Shown here piece by piece: positions 22,490 through 33,983 of a DNA stretch of 33,987 nt. This DNA is from an uncultured Collinsella sp. GTDB taxonomy: Bacteria > Actinomycetota > Coriobacteriia > Coriobacteriales > Coriobacteriaceae. Position numbers and translations under genes: made by a program. The first letter of the stretch is position 1, and each line of letters starts with the position of its first letter. A model generated the notes under the pieces. That model ran no database searches. It was not told where the DNA came from and was given only the letters and a program-made list of their open reading frames with translations. The stretch spans positions 1 through 33,987 of the forward strand of contig CABUTP010000001.1 in NCBI GenBank assembly GCA_902494545.1, written 5' to 3'.

Positions 22490-22750
22490 ATGTGCCTTGC
22501 CGTTCCCGGTAAAGTAGTCAAACGCGACGACGACCTTAAGGCGACCGTCGACATGATGGGCATCGAGCGCCCCGTTTCGCTGCGCCTCGTGCCGACGGCA
22601 CAGGTAGGCGACTATATTCTCGTGCACGCCGGCTTTGGCATTCAGATTGTCGACGAGCAGGAAGCCCAAGAGACACTCGAGCTCGTCAATACCATGACCG
22701 AGCTGGCCGAAGAGGACCAGCTCGCCACTAACCCGGCCGAGGCATACTAG
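22490..22750 (+). CDS. hypC: Hydrogenase maturation chaperone HypC
   Basis: MCLAVPG N-terminus and VGDYILVHAGF motif. Confidence 0.97.
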   Translation: MCLAVPGKVVKRDDDLKATVDMMGIERPVSLRLVPTAQVGDYILVHAGFGIQIVDEQEAQETLELVNTMTELAEEDQLATNPAEAY

Positions 22751-23865
22751 TGGCGGCGACGCAGCCGGTTCGCTCCGGTATCGACTTTTCGGCATTTCGC
22801 GACCCCAAGCTGGCTCGCGAGCTCATCGATCGTATTCATGAGCTTGTCGGTAACCGCAGCATCAACCTTATGGAAGTCTGCGGTACGCACACCGTGAGCA
22901 TTGGCCGCTATGGCTTTCGCTCCATCATGCCGACGGGACTCAAACTGCTAAGCGGCCCGGGTTGCCCCGTTTGCGTCACCGCCAACCGCGACATCGATCA
23001 CGCAATCGCGCTTTCCAACATGGACGACGCCATCATCACCACCTTTGGCGACATGATGCGCGTTCCCGGATCGTCCACCTCACTTGCCGCGCAAAAGGCG
23101 ACGGGGCGCGACATCCGCATCGTCTACTCTCCGCTCGACGCACTCGACATTGCCGAGCAAAATCCCGAACGCCCGGTCATCTTTATGGGCGTCGGCTTTG
23201 AGACCACAACGCCCACCATTGCCGCCGCTATCCTGGAGGCCGACGCGCGCGGGCTCCAGAACTTCTCGGTCTACTGTGCTCACAAGACCACGCCGCCGGC
23301 TCTGCGTGCGATCTCCAACGACCCCGAGACGACCATCGACGGCTTTATCCTGCCTGGTCACGTCGCTACCATCACCGGCCTGGCGCCCTTTAGCTTTTTG
23401 GTCGACGAGTTCGAGACCCCCGGCGTAGTCACCGGGTTTGAGCCAGTCGATATTCTGCAGGGCATCTGCATGCTGGTCCAGATGGTTGTCGAGAACAGGC
23501 CGGCGATCGACAACGCCTACCGCCGTGGCGTCAATGCAGACGGCAATCCCGTAGCGCGCCAGCTGGTCGAGCAGGTATTTGAGCCGTGCGACACCACGTG
23601 GCGCGGGCTGGGACCGATTGCCAACTCGGGTCTTTCCATCCGACCCGAATTCGCGCGCTTTGATGCCGGCGCCCGCTTTGACGTGCCCATTGAACCGACG
23701 GTTGAGCCACGCGGGTGCCGCTGCGGCGACGTGCTGCGCGGTGCCATCACGCCGAGCGACTGCCCGCTCTTTGGCCGCACCTGCACGCCCGAACACCCCG
23801 TCGGCCCCTGCATGGTGAGCTCCGAGGGCAGCTGCGCGGCGTACTACCGCTACCGCGACTATTAG
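22750..23865 (+). CDS. hypD: Hydrogenase maturation protein HypD
   Basis: MEVCGTHT, GPGCPVC, GFETT, PGHV and GPCMVSSEGSC motifs. Confidence 0.97.
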   Translation: MAATQPVRSGIDFSAFRDPKLARELIDRIHELVGNRSINLMEVCGTHTVSIGRYGFRSIMPTGLKLLSGPGCPVCVTANRDIDHAIALSNMDDAIITTFGDMMRVPGSSTSLAAQKATGRDIRIVYSPLDALDIAEQNPERPVIFMGVGFETTTPTIAAAILEADARGLQNFSVYCAHKTTPPALRAISNDPETTIDGFILPGHVATITGLAPFSFLVDEFETPGVVTGFEPVDILQGICMLVQMVVENRPAIDNAYRRGVNADGNPVARQLVEQVFEPCDTTWRGLGPIANSGLSIRPEFARFDAGARFDVPIEPTVEPRGCRCGDVLRGAITPSDCPLFGRTCTPEHPVGPCMVSSEGSCAAYYRYRDY

Positions 23866-23946
23866 GTTCCGCCGTTCTAACGAACAGCGGGCCGGTCGAC
23901 GCTGCGCCTCACCCATATAATTCCACCCACGATTGGAGTTTTCGAT

Positions 23947-25793: not shown

Positions 25794-25884
25794 GGTAGCC
25801 AATGTGGGACGGGACTCTTTTAGCTGCCCCCGCACCAAAGGAGTGTCCCCAACTGCCGGCAGAAAAGAAACGTCCCCAAGTGCC
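25794..25884. repeat. Cluster of three degenerate REP-like ..GTCCC units
   Basis: AAAAGAGTCCCGTCCC on the minus strand (25806-25821), then AAAGGAGTGTCCCCAACTGCC and AAAAGAAACGTCCCCAAGTGCC on the plus strand. Confidence 0.55.
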
Positions 25885-25885
25885 G

Positions 25886-26080
25886 CCCCAATGACTACCA
25901 TGGCAACGTCGCAGGTAGAGGACGGACAGCGAGCGGGCACCAGAGCGAACAAATTGGCATGAAAAGAGGACGGCATAGACCTTCTGGTCATGCCGTCCTC
26001 TTTGAATGACAAGTTGTCGCTCTGGTGCCCGCGCAGCGTCGAGCAGTTACGGCGTTTGGTAAAACGCCGTAACGAACTAC
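25886..26080. repeat. Structured non-coding repeat element, copy 1 (long bulged hairpin plus short hairpin)
   Basis: 100-nt hairpin at 25933-26032 with a GACC-TTCT-GGTC apex. Second hairpin GTTACGGCGTTT-GGTA-AAACGCCGTAAC at 26046-26073. Homologous to 33791-33983. Confidence 0.85.
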
Positions 26081-26092
26081 CGCGTAACTCCC

Positions 26093-26650
26093 CTAGCTCA
26101 TCATGGCATTCATCATCTCGTTGGTTGCGGAATCGTCGGCAGACCACTCGCCGTCGTCATTGCAGGAATACTTGAAGGTGACCTTGGTGTCCTTGGTCTT
26201 AGCAGCCTTGGTCACATCGACCATAACCTGACCGGCCATCTTGTACAGCTCGTCATCGGAAGGCATCGAATCGAGCGCAGCGACCTTCTCCTGGTACTGG
26301 GTGGCAAAATCCTCAACGATCTGGTTCATGGACTTGCAGGTAATGGTGACCTCGGCAGTCGCGGTGCCCTTGTCCTCATCGACCGTCACGTCGCCGATCT
26401 TGTAGTCAAAGCCCTCGAGATAGCTCTTGGCGTACTCCTTGGGATCGATGCCCAGCTGCTCGAACTCGTCGCCCGAAGCCTCTTCCAGGCCGGCGAGGAA
26501 GTCGTCGCCACCGTTCTTGACCTCGTCAAACTGCGTCGTAAGATCCTCGGTGATGAGCTCCTCAACCGAAGGACCTCCGCAGCCGGAAAGCACAACCACG
26601 CACGCGACCAGAACAGCCATCAGGGGCACAAGCAGCAGCTTCTTTTTCAT
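26093..26650 (-). CDS. Putative lipoprotein
   Basis: MKKKLLLVPLMAVLVACVVVLSG|C lipobox; acidic mature domain. Confidence 0.85.
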   Translation of the reverse strand: MKKKLLLVPLMAVLVACVVVLSGCGGPSVEELITEDLTTQFDEVKNGGDDFLAGLEEASGDEFEQLGIDPKEYAKSYLEGFDYKIGDVTVDEDKGTATAEVTITCKSMNQIVEDFATQYQEKVAALDSMPSDDELYKMAGQVMVDVTKAAKTKDTKVTFKYSCNDDGEWSADDSATNEMMNAMMS

Positions 26651-26829
26651 GAGATTCCTCCCAACAAGCGGCACCGCGCTTCCCGACGCGGTGCACGTCG
26701 TAACAATAAGGCCATACTAGCCGCTAACGAACACCCCCGGCAAAGCAAAGGCGCAGTCGGCTCGATTTAACGTCCGAACGGTTTACCGGTCCGCCCAACG
26801 CGCAATAAAACGTTCCGCCGCATTGTAAT

Positions 26830-33776: not shown

Positions 33777-33803
33777 TCATTTAAGAACGTCCCCAATGAC
33801 TAC
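33773..33803 (+). repeat. REP-like stem-loop overlapping the rpiR stop codon and heading element copy 2
   Basis: GTAGTCATT-TAAGAACGTCCCC-AATGACTAC, a 9-bp perfect stem with a ..GTCCCC loop. Confidence 0.75.
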
Positions 33804-33983
33804 TACGGCAACACCGATGTTTTGGCAACGCCAGCGAGCGGGCCGCATTTGAGACAAGGTGACGTGAAACGAAAGGGCGCTGACCTTCTGGTCGCGCCCT
33901 TTATGTTTAACGTCAGATTGTCCAAATGCGGCCCGCGCAGCGTCGGCCCGTTACGCGGTTTGGTAAAACCGCGTAACCCCTAC
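33791..33983. repeat. Structured non-coding repeat element, copy 2
   Basis: 99-nt hairpin at 33838-33936 with a GACC-TTCT-GGTC apex. Second hairpin GTTACGCGGTTT-GGTA-AAACCGCGTAAC at 33950-33977. May continue beyond the window end. Confidence 0.85.

What the first reader, a model, noticed from the sequence alone, without database searches (positions are those of the whole stretch)
25886..26080. ~190-bp structured non-coding element present twice, with conserved geometry and compensatory stem changes
Seen: 25886-26080 and 33791-33983 share the ordered motifs CCCCAATGACTAC-N3-GGCAAC-N19-CAGCGAGCGGGC, the apex GACC-TTCT-GGTC, GCCCGCGCAGCGTCG, and GTTAC-N4-TTTGGTAAAA-N4-GTAAC..CTAC. Spacing is the same in both copies: 47 nt from CCCC to the long stem and 13 nt between the two hairpins, with long hairpins of 100 and 99 nt. 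The stems differ in sequence yet stay paired. The basal stem is GCGGGCACCAGAGCG/CGCTCTGGTGCCCGC versus GCGGGCCGCATTTG/CAAATGCGGCCCGC. The upper stem is AAAGAGGACGGCAT/ATGCCGTCCTCTTT versus AAAGGGCGC/GCGCCCTTT. The small hairpin is GGCG/CGCC versus GCGG/CCGC. Both copies keep a single bulged A above the basal stem and a single bulge below the apical GACC. Inference: structure is maintained by selection or by a copying mechanism. This is either a multi-copy structured ncRNA or a non-autonomous hairpin element (REPIN/MITE-like) acted on in trans. No ORF explains it.
Basis: partly seen in the sequence, partly recalled or inferred. Interest (0 to 1): 0.88.

Follow-up and report, generated by a model that had tools for sequence, protein, structure and literature searches.

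The report
Collinsella gene-end hairpin repeat family
The two look-alike stretches are copies of an undescribed, non-coding, hairpin-rich repeat found dozens of times per genome in Collinsella gut bacteria, almost always placed right after the stop codon of an ordinary gene.

Summary
The two copies are not a pair. They belong to a family of about 25 full copies in this 1.9-Mb draft genome and 25-46 model matches in each of 22 of the 24 other same-genus species searched (one had 3 weak matches, one none). All 80 listed hits of a public scan are titled Collinsella or Coriobacteriaceae. A diverged version occurs in one other genus.

It starts 0-6 nt after the stop of a co-oriented, unrelated housekeeping gene in 17 of 21 own copies and 99 of 111 foreign loci.

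Presence is polymorphic: 8 filled and 27 empty sites after rpoD. Modules are swapped at orthologous sites, and filled alleles lack the native terminator. Both hairpins are strongly maintained (97% paired; 32 of 53 pairs compensatory), but G-U and A-C cells are equal, so nothing points to RNA.

In a complete genome, 28 of 30 copies are co-oriented with replication. It is not Rfam Collinsella-1 or any other Rfam family.

Best reading: a non-autonomous mosaic repeat of the REP/BIME, ERIC or SPRITE kind, with an unidentified mobiliser. It is a new member of a known kind, of moderate interest.

The parts
26093..26674 (-). Gene whose stop codon (TAG, 26093-26095 on the - strand) precedes copy A. No Pfam family found.
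   Evidence: ORF list. Codon-position GC proxy. Pfam scan found 0 families (protein 4). Orthologues in 11 other species end with the same ...MMNAMMS/..AMLS stop followed by the element.
26074..26092 (-). Partial duplicate of an element 5' end. On the - strand the stretch reads, after the stop TAG, GGGAGTTACGCGG followed by TAGTTC. It explains the unusual 18-nt gap between the stop codon and the small hairpin in copy A.
   Evidence: The alignment of 12 orthologous loci shows a 16-nt insertion TAGGGGAGTTACGCGG in 4 of 12 species, this genome included.
26046..26073 (-). Small hairpin module of copy A (28 nt, 12-bp stem).
   Evidence: Helix 1 is 98.9% paired, with 8 of 12 pairs showing compensatory changes across 98 distinct copies.
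26033..26045 (-). Spacer plus the conserved core motif (CGACGCTGC on the - strand, 26033-26041).
   Evidence: Invariant or near-invariant columns in 20 own copies. Conserved as TGACGCTGC in the other genus.
25933..26032 (-). Long imperfect hairpin of copy A (100 nt). The apex is GACC-AGAA-GGTC on the - strand. It carries conserved unpaired TTCAA/TTTCA internal loops.
   Evidence: It is replaced as a block by other hairpin subtypes at the same orthologous site in 4 of 12 species.
25900..25932 (-). TCGCTG motif (25927-25932 on the - strand) and the 3' tail of copy A. The far boundary is approximate.
   Evidence: Family alignment. The tail survives alone at a site that lacks both hairpins (own contig C65).
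25840..25898 (.). Units of a second, separate short repeat family (..GTCCCCAA.. / TTGGGGAC..).
   Evidence: It recurs beyond the far end of about 9 of 23 own copies evaluated. The same motif in inverted orientation flanks RAYT-like genes.
33802..33982 (-). Copy B: tail, TCGCTG (33832-33837), long hairpin 33838-33936, core 33937-33945, small hairpin 33950-33977, then CCC and the reverse complement of a TAG stop (33980-33982). The gene that this stop ends lies beyond the window end.
   Evidence: The junction GGCCGTAGGGGTTAC is identical to that of an SDR-family gene on own contig C36.
23866..23908 (+). Solo unit with a small hairpin (GTTCCGCC..GGGCC) plus CGACGCTGC but no long hairpin or tail. 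It sits directly after the TAG stop (23863-23865) of the + strand gene 22750-23865 and 38 nt before the next gene's ATG (23947).
   Evidence: nhmmer partial hit, sequence, stop-adjacent list.

Best explanation
The finding is one family of non-coding, non-autonomous, mosaic intergenic repeats. It is specific to the Collinsella aerofaciens group, with a diverged relative in one neighbouring genus.

A full unit reads, on the sense strand of the upstream gene: stop codon, 0-6 nt, a 28-nt hairpin, a 4-nt spacer, CGACGCTGC, a ~100-nt imperfect hairpin with conserved unpaired loops, TCGCTG, and a ~25-35-nt tail.

SHOWN
- The modules are separable. Solo small-hairpin units, units without the small hairpin, hairpin-only units and a tail-only remnant all occur.
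- The element spreads or is exchanged at the DNA level. Sites are filled in some species and empty in others, and whole modules are swapped between copies at one orthologous site.
- It occupies the exact 3' boundary of genes, in one orientation.
- Where it is present, the native intrinsic terminator between the stop codon and the next repeat is missing at all three loci examined.

INFERRED
- It is copied by a strand-specific, single-stranded-DNA process at the replication fork. The sense-orientation strand, which is the lagging-strand template in 28 of 30 copies, folds into the two hairpins, which a trans-acting protein recognises through the conserved unpaired motifs. That requirement keeps the stems paired while their sequence drifts.
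- Once in place it is transcribed as the 3' UTR of the upstream gene. There its hairpins probably take over 3'-end formation or protection from the lost terminator.

The mobilising enzyme is not identified.
For: Copy number and range
- 25 copies scoring above 80 bits on 23 contigs of the own genome.
- 25-46 model matches in 22 of 24 other same-genus species; one more had 3 weak matches and one none. No matches in 15 of 16 other genera of the order.
- All 80 listed titles of a public scan are Collinsella or Coriobacteriaceae.

Position and orientation
- In the own genome, 17 of 21 copies with a callable upstream ORF start -2 to +6 nt from its stop. The other 4 are separated by a partial duplicate, an extra small-hairpin unit (2 cases) or a terminator.
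- Of 111 foreign loci with an upstream ORF, 93 have the stop 30-37 nt before the core, which places the small hairpin directly after the stop. In 6 more the core is 6 nt after the stop. These loci represent 27 distinct genes, 24 with at least one adjacent member.
- In a PGAP-annotated C. aerofaciens record, an unannotated copy ends 3 nt from the lysS stop.

Neighbouring genes
- They are unrelated housekeeping genes: rpoD, glmM-like, queA, dapH, an aaRS, htpG and others.

Mobility
- After rpoD, 8 of 35 species are filled, with three different junction and module types.
- Two further loci have filled and empty alleles, and one own site keeps only a degenerate core plus tail.
- At the copy-A site, three long-hairpin subtypes and several small-hairpin variants sit between identical flanks in 12 species.

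Structure
- 97.1% of 5144 pair cells are standard pairs. 32 of 53 pairs show double changes. There are 889 double-change cells against 304 +/- 17 in shuffles and 63-154 when partners are slid.
- The architecture and the unpaired motifs are conserved in another genus while the stems differ.

Strand bias
- In a complete genome with dnaA at 1.77 Mb and a GC-skew switch at 0.65-0.74 Mb, 28 of 30 full copies are co-oriented with replication, against 160 of 249 (64%) of proxy ORFs. Binomial P = 2.6e-4.

Terminator loss
- Empty rpoD alleles and the empty alleles at the L101 and L153 loci carry a hairpin plus T-run. The filled alleles do not.
Against: - No transposase or recombinase is linked to the element.
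  - 16 RAYT-like/IS200-like loci have no copy within about 1.5 kb.
  - The other genus has 33 copies but no PF01797 match.
- No clean insertion with a target-site duplication was found. The three filled/empty pairs that could be read across both junctions are replacements of the terminator-bearing segment, not simple insertions. Recombination between copies could therefore account for part of the spread.
- The leader between stop codon and hairpin varies (none, G, GG, GGG, A, GA, TA, TT, GGGA). This is unusual for a precise transposase.
- The replication-strand excess shrinks to P = 0.044 if the carrier genes are 80% co-oriented, as essential genes often are.
- The Collinsella small hairpin has no T-run, so a terminator role is not evident from sequence.
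- Stop-codon adjacency to within a few nt is hard to explain by any known DNA target, because stop codons and tRNA 3' ends share no sequence.
Confidence: 0.6

Rival explanations
1. A host-beneficial cis-acting 3'-UTR module. The small hairpin, abutting the stop codon or an RNA gene's 3' end, and the long hairpin act in the mRNA as a U-tract-less terminator, as a 3'-exonuclease block, or as a brake on the terminating ribosome. The brake role is recalled from E. coli, where REP sequences within about 15 nt of a stop are reported to lower expression. On this reading, selection for that function sets the position, and mobility is secondary.
For: - Very tight spacing to the stop codon, in one orientation.
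- Native terminators are absent from filled alleles.
- In the other genus, 3 copies follow tRNA-Ser, tRNA-Phe and tmRNA within 4-9 nt, and by my reading of the sequences printed about 7 of 30 small hairpins are followed by a T-run like true terminators.
- Non-complementary internal loops are conserved across genera, which a purely palindrome-correcting process would erase.
- In convergent gene pairs the element lies between the stop codon and a retained bidirectional terminator, so it would be transcribed.
Against: - Presence is polymorphic for the same essential gene: 27 of 35 species lack it after rpoD.
- The carrier genes share no theme.
- G-U and A-C cells are equal (64 against 62), so there is no RNA-strand signature.
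- There is no U-tract in Collinsella copies.
- The replication-strand bias is not predicted by an RNA role.
Confidence: 0.22
2. A recombination site system. The long hairpin, flanked by the direct repeat CGCTG (within CGACGCTGC and TCGCTG), would be a cassette exchanged by a site-specific recombinase that reads folded single-stranded DNA. This is analogous to integron attC sites, whose extrahelical bases give strand choice.
For: - Whole long hairpins are replaced between identical flanks at one orthologous site.
- The flanking motifs are conserved in two genera.
- Unpaired bases within the stem are conserved.
- Strand bias with respect to replication.
Against: - There are no cassette arrays. 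Copies are dispersed after core genes.
- No integrase was sought or found near copies.
- Ordinary gene conversion between about 40 similar copies explains block replacement equally well.
- Variation in the flanking motifs does not covary between left and right sides.
Confidence: 0.08
3. A multi-copy, trans-acting structured small RNA gene family.
For: - Very stable, conserved secondary structure.
- Lineage-wide conservation.
Against: - The element abuts stop codons in sense orientation and no conserved promoter element was noticed in the family alignments; no promoter scan was run.
- Subfamilies differ in most stem positions, so no common target-pairing sequence exists.
- It matches no Rfam family.
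- Modules occur separately.
Confidence: 0.05

Closest known systems
REP/BIME elements of enterobacteria and pseudomonads, with REPINs and the GTAG-type SMAG repeats of Stenotrophomonas
   Same: High-copy, extragenic, hairpin-forming units at gene 3' ends, assembled into mosaics of separable modules and transcribed with the upstream gene. The review PMC3184786 (passages read) describes SMAG units preceded by GTAG that alter the stability of the upstream transcript, and the proposal that RAYT proteins mobilise REPs.
   Different: - The units here are larger (28 nt plus about 100 nt) and asymmetric.
- The TAG before the small hairpin is the gene's own stop codon, not part of the repeat. It is absent from copies that are not at a stop.
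- No RAYT-like gene is flanked by the element.
- A genome with 33 copies has no Y1 transposase match.
[quoted passage not shown]
   Same: Non-coding repeats of about 100-130 nt that fold into a long hairpin and lie in transcribed regions next to gene ends. SPRITE is described as terminator-like in PMC3184786 (passages read). ERIC is recalled from general knowledge, not from a call.
   Different: There is no sequence relation. Collinsella copies lack a U-tract. Placement within a few nt of the stop codon, and loss of the native terminator in filled alleles, are not features I know to be described for those families.
IS200/IS605-derived non-autonomous elements (PATEs) moved by Y1 HUH transposases
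   Same: Subterminal hairpins rather than terminal inverted repeats, no obvious target duplication, a single orientation, and co-orientation with replication (28 of 30). Co-orientation is what insertion into the lagging-strand template gives, a property recalled for IS608/ISDra2.
   Different: No parent element with matching ends was found. There is no fixed 4-5-nt target. The junction is simply TA(G/A) of the stop codon followed by a variable leader.
Rfam RF01700 Collinsella-1 RNA (Weinberg et al. 2010, PMC2864571; table row seen)
   Same: A structured non-coding motif of similar length (196 model positions) from the same genus and habitat.
   Different: It is a different sequence and structure at different loci. 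In the own genome its best matches are C6:8369-8572 (34.6 bits), C27 and C266, and it has none in the window or at any copy scanned.

Membership tests
Rfam RF01700 Collinsella-1 (and any Rfam 15 family) | Match to the covariance model at or above the gathering score | tested here: not met
   There were 0 gathering-level hits in the whole window. On six copy-bearing loci at E <= 1, only chance microRNA-type hairpin matches appeared, far below their cut-offs. RF01700 matches other places in the own genome.
REP/REPIN-RAYT system | The RAYT (Y1 HUH) gene is flanked by copies of the repeat it mobilises | tested here: not met
   There were no R1 matches (E <= 1) in 16 loci of about +/-1.5 kb around Y1/RAYT-like genes from 10 genomes. 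The RAYT-like genes in loci L236, L237 and L238 are instead flanked by inverted TTGGGGAC/GTCCCCAA repeats.
REP/REPIN-RAYT system | Co-occurrence of repeat and RAYT across genomes | tested here: inconclusive
   A RAYT-like protein was found in 58 of 61 same-genus genomes. Of four genomes with few or no copies, two lack it (G015, G050) and two have it (G014, G045). G026 has 33 copies and no PF01797 match. The genomes are close kin, so these are not independent observations.
REP/REPIN-RAYT system | A conserved 5' tetranucleotide (GTAG type) belongs to the repeat | tested here: not met
   The TAG is the upstream gene's stop codon. It is TAA in 4 of 21 own loci and 27 of 111 foreign loci, and it is missing where the hairpin is not at a stop (C161, and the second units of C284 and C225).
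MITE (IS-derived, terminal inverted repeats plus target-site duplication) | Terminal inverted repeats at the element ends and a duplicated target | tested here: inconclusive
   The whole unit has unlike ends (small hairpin versus tail). The long hairpin alone could be read as two inverted arms flanked by the direct repeat CGCTG, but this motif is near-invariant and its rare variants do not match left to right. No clean empty site was recovered.
IS200/IS605-type non-autonomous element | Single orientation relative to replication (active strand on the lagging-strand template) | tested here: met
   28 of 30 full copies in the complete genome G021 are co-oriented with replication. dnaA and GC skew define the replichores. 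The proxy-gene background is 64%. This feature is compatible with the family but does not prove membership.
IS200/IS605-type non-autonomous element | A fixed 4-5-nt target 5' of the left end, and a cognate Y1 transposase with matching ends | tested here: not met
   The left flank is only TA(G/A) plus a variable leader. The one strong IS200-type gene in G021 (136 bits) has no element-like ends.
Intrinsic (Rho-independent) terminator / SPRITE-like terminator element | GC-rich hairpin followed directly by a T-run | tested here: not met
   Collinsella small hairpins are followed by NNNN-CGACGCTGC and the long hairpin by TCGCTG. In the other genus, about 7 of 30 small hairpins do carry T5-6, by my reading of the sequences.
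Integron attC / gene cassettes | Arrays of short cassettes, each ending in an attC with RYYYAAC...GTTRRRY boxes, next to an intI gene | tested here: not met
   Copies are dispersed singly after core genes of normal length. GCGTAAC/GTTACGC do not fit the box consensus, which I recalled rather than took from a call. No intI search was run.

The most novel reading that the evidence does not exclude
The element is a gene-end-homing mobile module. A strand-specific, single-stranded-DNA mechanism, run by an enzyme that is not a recognisable Y1 transposase, places it exactly at the functional 3' boundary of a gene: the stop codon of an ORF, or the 3' end of a tRNA or tmRNA. The same event removes the native terminator, which the element's own hairpins then replace. 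That would be a mobile element whose target is defined by where a gene product ends rather than by a DNA sequence. It may read the boundary through the transcription-translation machinery or through the terminator hairpin.
Probability: 0.15. Interest if true: 0.8.

Novelty: new member of a known kind. Interest (0 to 1): 0.5.

Why it matters
Collinsella aerofaciens is a common human gut actinobacterium, and these repeats sit behind core genes such as rpoD, lysS, glmM-like and queA.

Practical consequences:
- The family breaks short-read assemblies. Many copies lie at contig ends.
- It is unannotated in RefSeq.
- It could be mistaken for a regulatory RNA.

Biological interest:
- Three features together give a tractable case for asking how small non-autonomous repeats choose sites and whether they take over terminator function: placement within a few nt of stop codons, replacement of native terminators, and bias toward the replication-exposed strand.
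- Filled and empty alleles among closely related species give natural controls.

Tried and rejected
- Rfam. The gathering scan of the window found 0 hits. The E-value scan of six copy loci gave only chance microRNA-like matches. RF01700 hits lie elsewhere in the genome.
- Regulon idea. Pfam on 20 adjacent genes shows no common function.
- RNA-strand test. In the 20 own copies G-U seemed to exceed A-C by my hand count of the table. On 98 distinct copies the counts are 64 against 62, so I dropped that argument.
- RAYT link. RAYT-like genes exist (NF047646, 56.7 bits, below the 80-bit cut-off) but are flanked by a different repeat and never by this element. One of the two own paralogues lacks the HUH histidines and the tyrosine motif, by my reading of its translation.
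- TAG as part of the element. TAG is enriched (17 of 21 own loci), but the genome background is already 49% TAG and 8% TGA. Orthologues switch between TAG and TAA.
- Base before the stop. T is somewhat enriched (9 of 21 stop-adjacent candidates, not all true copies, against 12% background), on too few independent sites to use.
- Right junction of the third rpoD type. The metagenome scan found 4 contigs, and all end within about 100 nt of the junction.
- RNA-seq. No RNA holder was listed.
- Phages: no match. Plasmid collection: only one 0.9-Mb C. aerofaciens replicon, with 11 places.
- Earlier scan notes: none for this genome or sequence.
- Literature. Four full-text searches found no description of this element: Collinsella + repetitive element/hairpin/intergenic; Collinsella-1; C. 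aerofaciens + MITE/REP/palindromic; RAYT/REPIN + Actinobacteria/Coriobacteri. Subscription journals are not covered.
- The E. coli 'REP near stop codon' paper could not be found in the library and is cited from recall only.
Full report

Yes.
- Copy A: CCCC at 25886; long hairpin 25933-26032 (100 nt, 47 nt downstream of CCCC); 13-nt spacer; small hairpin 26046-26073.
- Copy B: long hairpin 33838-33936 (99 nt); small hairpin 33950-33977.
- The stems differ between the copies and stay paired.
- Copy A folds far better than dinucleotide shuffles on both strands (z = -10.2 and -12.0).

**2. It is a large family, not a pair.**

- A similarity search of the window's own assembly (1.9 Mb, 376 contigs, 84% complete) gave 48 matches.
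- Iterated nhmmer gave 65 hits at E <= 1e-3. Of these, 25 are distinct copies scoring above 80 bits, on 23 contigs. The rest are reverse-strand echoes of the palindrome or fragments. Several copies lie at contig ends, as expected for a repeat that breaks assemblies.
- I built a covariance model (R1) from 20 own copies and ran it on 41 genomes.
  - 22 of 24 other species of the same genus had 17-46 matches each (25-46 except in a 59%-complete genome). One (G014) had 3 weak matches and one (G015) none.
  - 15 of 16 other genera of the order had no match. One genus (G026) had 28-33 weaker matches.
All 80 listed titles are Collinsella or Coriobacteriaceae, including C. aerofaciens ATCC 25986.

**3. 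Anatomy and orientation.**

On the sense strand of the upstream gene it reads:

STOP, 0-6 nt, GTTACGCGGTTTTACCAAACCGCGTAAC, NNNN, yCGACGCTGC, the long hairpin, TCGCTG, and a tail of two main kinds.

Own genome:
- 21 of the 25 copies had a callable upstream ORF.
- 17 of these start -2 to +6 nt from its stop.
- The other four are explained by a 16-nt partial duplicate (window copy A, 18 nt), an extra small-hairpin unit (51 and 54 nt) or an intervening terminator (140 nt).
- Two further copies that lack the small hairpin overlap their gene's stop directly (C45 and C76).

The 122 foreign loci:
- 3 were too close to the locus start, 8 had no ORF end within 150 nt, and 111 had one.
- In 93 the stop lies 30-37 nt before the core, which places the small hairpin directly after the stop. 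In 6 it lies 6 nt before the core, with no small hairpin.
- In the other 12 the distance is 40-51 nt (5), 78-85 nt (6) or 125 nt (1).
- The 111 loci reduce to 27 distinct upstream genes. 24 have at least one stop-adjacent member and 20 have all members adjacent.

An independently annotated (PGAP) C. aerofaciens record shows an unannotated copy ending 3 nt from the lysS stop.

**4. What the neighbours say.**

The upstream genes are unrelated housekeeping genes. They include dapH-like, rpoD, two phosphoglucosamine-mutase-like genes, a pfkB kinase, dcuC, an SDR, queA, a DAHP synthase, a LytR-family gene, an aminotransferase, htpG, an RNase D-like gene, a class I aaRS, an ABC-F protein and a serine dehydratase. 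This does not look like a regulon.

Stops at own copies are TAG in 17, TAA in 4 and TGA in 0. The genome as a whole uses TAG 505, TAA 433 and TGA 83 among 1021 proxy ORFs. Orthologues switch between TAG and TAA. The stop codon therefore belongs to the gene and is not part of the repeat.

**5. Structure.**

- On 20 own copies, RNAalifold finds 53 pairs, 32 of them with compensatory changes.
- On 100 copies from many species (98 distinct), 97.1% of 5144 cells are standard pairs.
- There are 889 cells with both sides changed, against 304 +/- 17 in shuffles (0 of 500 reach the observed value) and 63-154 when partners are slid by 1-3 columns.
- Two qualifications apply.
  - These are paralogous copies, so cells are not independent events.
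  - G-U cells (64) equal A-C cells (62). Nothing singles out an RNA strand, and pairing is essentially Watson-Crick, as expected for a DNA-level constraint.
- On the other hand, unpaired features are conserved between subfamilies and in the other genus. These are CGACGCTGC, TCGCTG, the TTCAA/TTTCA internal loops and a pyrimidine-pyrimidine mismatch pair. A mechanism that merely perfects palindromes would remove them, so some single-stranded form is being recognised.

**6. Mosaic structure and mobility.**

Modules occur separately:
- A solo small hairpin plus core sits directly after a stop in the window (23866-23908, between two genes of an operon). Extra copies of the same unit sit in front of full elements (C284 and C225).
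- Units without the small hairpin exist (C45 and C76; 6 of 111 foreign loci).
- Long-hairpin-only variants occur after stops, some with one helix segment flipped (C9, C222, C100, C352).
- One site keeps only a degenerate core plus tail, where two other species have the full unit.

At the orthologous copy-A site in 12 species, the flanks are near-identical but the long hairpin is of three different subtypes (8, 3 and 1 species). The small hairpin also varies.

Downstream of rpoD, 8 of 35 species carry the element and 27 do not. The filled alleles fall into three types: TAG-TAGTTAC in 5, TAG-GG(G)TTCC in 2 and AGC-TAG-GAGTTAC in 1. They sit on two different rpoD 3' alleles.

Empty rpoD alleles carry TAA or TAG followed by a canonical hairpin plus T-run. 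Filled alleles lack that terminator. The left junction is at TA of the stop codon (empty TCT TAA CCTCGC against filled TCT TAG TAGTTAC). The right junction lies in or next to the second repeat family. The same replacement pattern holds at two more loci.

I did not recover a simple insertion with intact flanks, so the termini and any target duplication remain undefined.

**7. Replication-strand bias.**

- In the near-complete genome G021, dnaA lies at 1.769 Mb.
- GC skew in 20 sampled 20-kb regions is positive from 1.78 Mb through 0 to 0.64 Mb, apart from one near-zero value at 0.40 Mb. It is negative from 0.74 to 1.68 Mb.
- 28 of the 30 full-length copies (E < 1e-10) point away from the origin. 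The exceptions are at 1,389,225 and 1,793,008.
- The proxy-gene background is 160 of 249 (64%).
- The binomial tail is 2.6e-4, or 0.044 if the carrier genes were 80% co-oriented.
- The strand that carries the element in sense orientation is thus the lagging-strand template, which is transiently single-stranded. This is the signature recalled for IS200/IS605-type single-strand transposition. It is suggestive, not decisive.

**8. Candidate enzymes, and the second repeat.**

- PF01797 (Y1 transposase) matches exist in the own genome (2), G021 (3) and G010 (3). None was found in G015 (no element) or G026 (33 copies).
- The own 249-aa protein is closest to REP-associated tyrosine transposases (NF047646, 56.7 bits, below the 80-bit cut-off).
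- Relatives occur in 58 of 61 same-genus genomes.
- None of the 16 loci examined has an element copy nearby.
- Instead, the RAYT-like genes in three loci (L236, L237, L238) are bracketed by inverted TTGGGGAC.../...GTCCCCAA repeats.
- That same short family lies beyond the far end of about 9 of 23 own copies evaluated.
- It is a plausible REPIN-RAYT pair in its own right.
- The mobiliser of the hairpin element remains unknown.

**9. The other genus.**

G026 carries 33 matches with the same order of modules and the same unpaired motifs but different stems. Of 30 copies examined:
- 15 start -8 to +3 nt from an ORF stop, and 3 start at 15-24 nt.
- 3 start 4-9 nt after tRNA-Ser, tRNA-Phe or tmRNA.
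- 9 have no gene end called.

By my reading of the sequences, about 7 small hairpins there carry a T-run like true terminators. Nearest-neighbour identity among copies is lower there (71-98%) than in the own genome (80-98%).

So the rule is 'at the 3' end of a gene product', not 'after a stop codon' as such.

**10. Comparison and verdict.**

The element is not in Rfam 15, and it is distinct from Collinsella-1, RF01700. Four literature searches found no description. It has no phage match.

It works like the mosaic extragenic repeats of other bacteria (REP/BIME, SMAG, ERIC, SPRITE; review PMC3184786, passages read). It fails the tested membership criteria for:
- REP-RAYT systems;
- canonical terminators;
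- attC sites;
- IS200/IS605 derivatives, where it meets only the strand bias.

I file it as a new member of the known kind 'non-autonomous structured intergenic repeat'. It has three unusual traits that deserve follow-up: exact gene-end placement, terminator replacement and replication-strand bias.

No expression data could be obtained.

Noticed in passing
window 25840-25898 and 33777-33801; own contig C8:7880-8900 (locus L236:1290-1320 and 2235-2270): A second short repeat family (TTGGGGACGTTCTT.., GTAGTCATTGGGG.., GACTAGTC), often as inverted doublets. It brackets RAYT-like Y1 transposase genes in inverted orientation in three genomes and looks like a REPIN-RAYT system of Collinsella. GGGGACGTTC occurs 47 times in the own genome against about 7 expected.
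   Followed up: partly
whole own genome; prfB at G000:C145:3215-4276: TGA is a rare stop codon (83 of 1021 proxy ORFs, 8%) in a 60% G+C genome, while TAG is the commonest (49%). RF2 (prfB) is present above its cut-off in the own genome, G021 and G015, so this is usage bias and not loss of TGA recognition.
   Followed up: partly
own contig C290:970-1848 (locus L239): A second RAYT-like paralogue whose HUH motif reads HVD and whose YxHxNP motif reads VHAGP. It is probably catalytically dead.
   Followed up: no
own contigs C6:8369-8572, C27:680-769: Matches to Rfam Collinsella-1 (RF01700) just under the gathering score (34.6 and 28.5 bits against 35). This is the described Collinsella motif, and it is unrelated to the finding.
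   Followed up: partly
G026 loci L271, L272, L277 (about 30 nt before each element copy): Sequences that look like tRNA 3' halves (..GGGAGTCCCGTCACCCGCTCCA) lie directly before element copies. In L272 and L277 they are about 198 nt downstream of real tRNA-Gly genes, and ARAGORN does not call them. They may be duplicated tRNA ends left by integration events.
   Followed up: no
own contigs C115:382-1725 and C84:6571-6879: Two phosphoglucosamine-mutase-like genes with nearly the same C-terminus (..AMKRIA[S/N]ALEAL), each followed by a copy. They may be strain variants co-assembled in the bin (contamination 3%) rather than paralogues.
   Followed up: no
own contig C100:968-1201: A long-hairpin-only unit directly follows the TAG of an ORF whose C-terminus looks like a peptidase or amidohydrolase (my reading; no family scan was run). 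After it comes an in-frame 77-codon stretch that reads like the C-terminal fragment of a membrane transporter, possibly a gene remnant.
   Followed up: no
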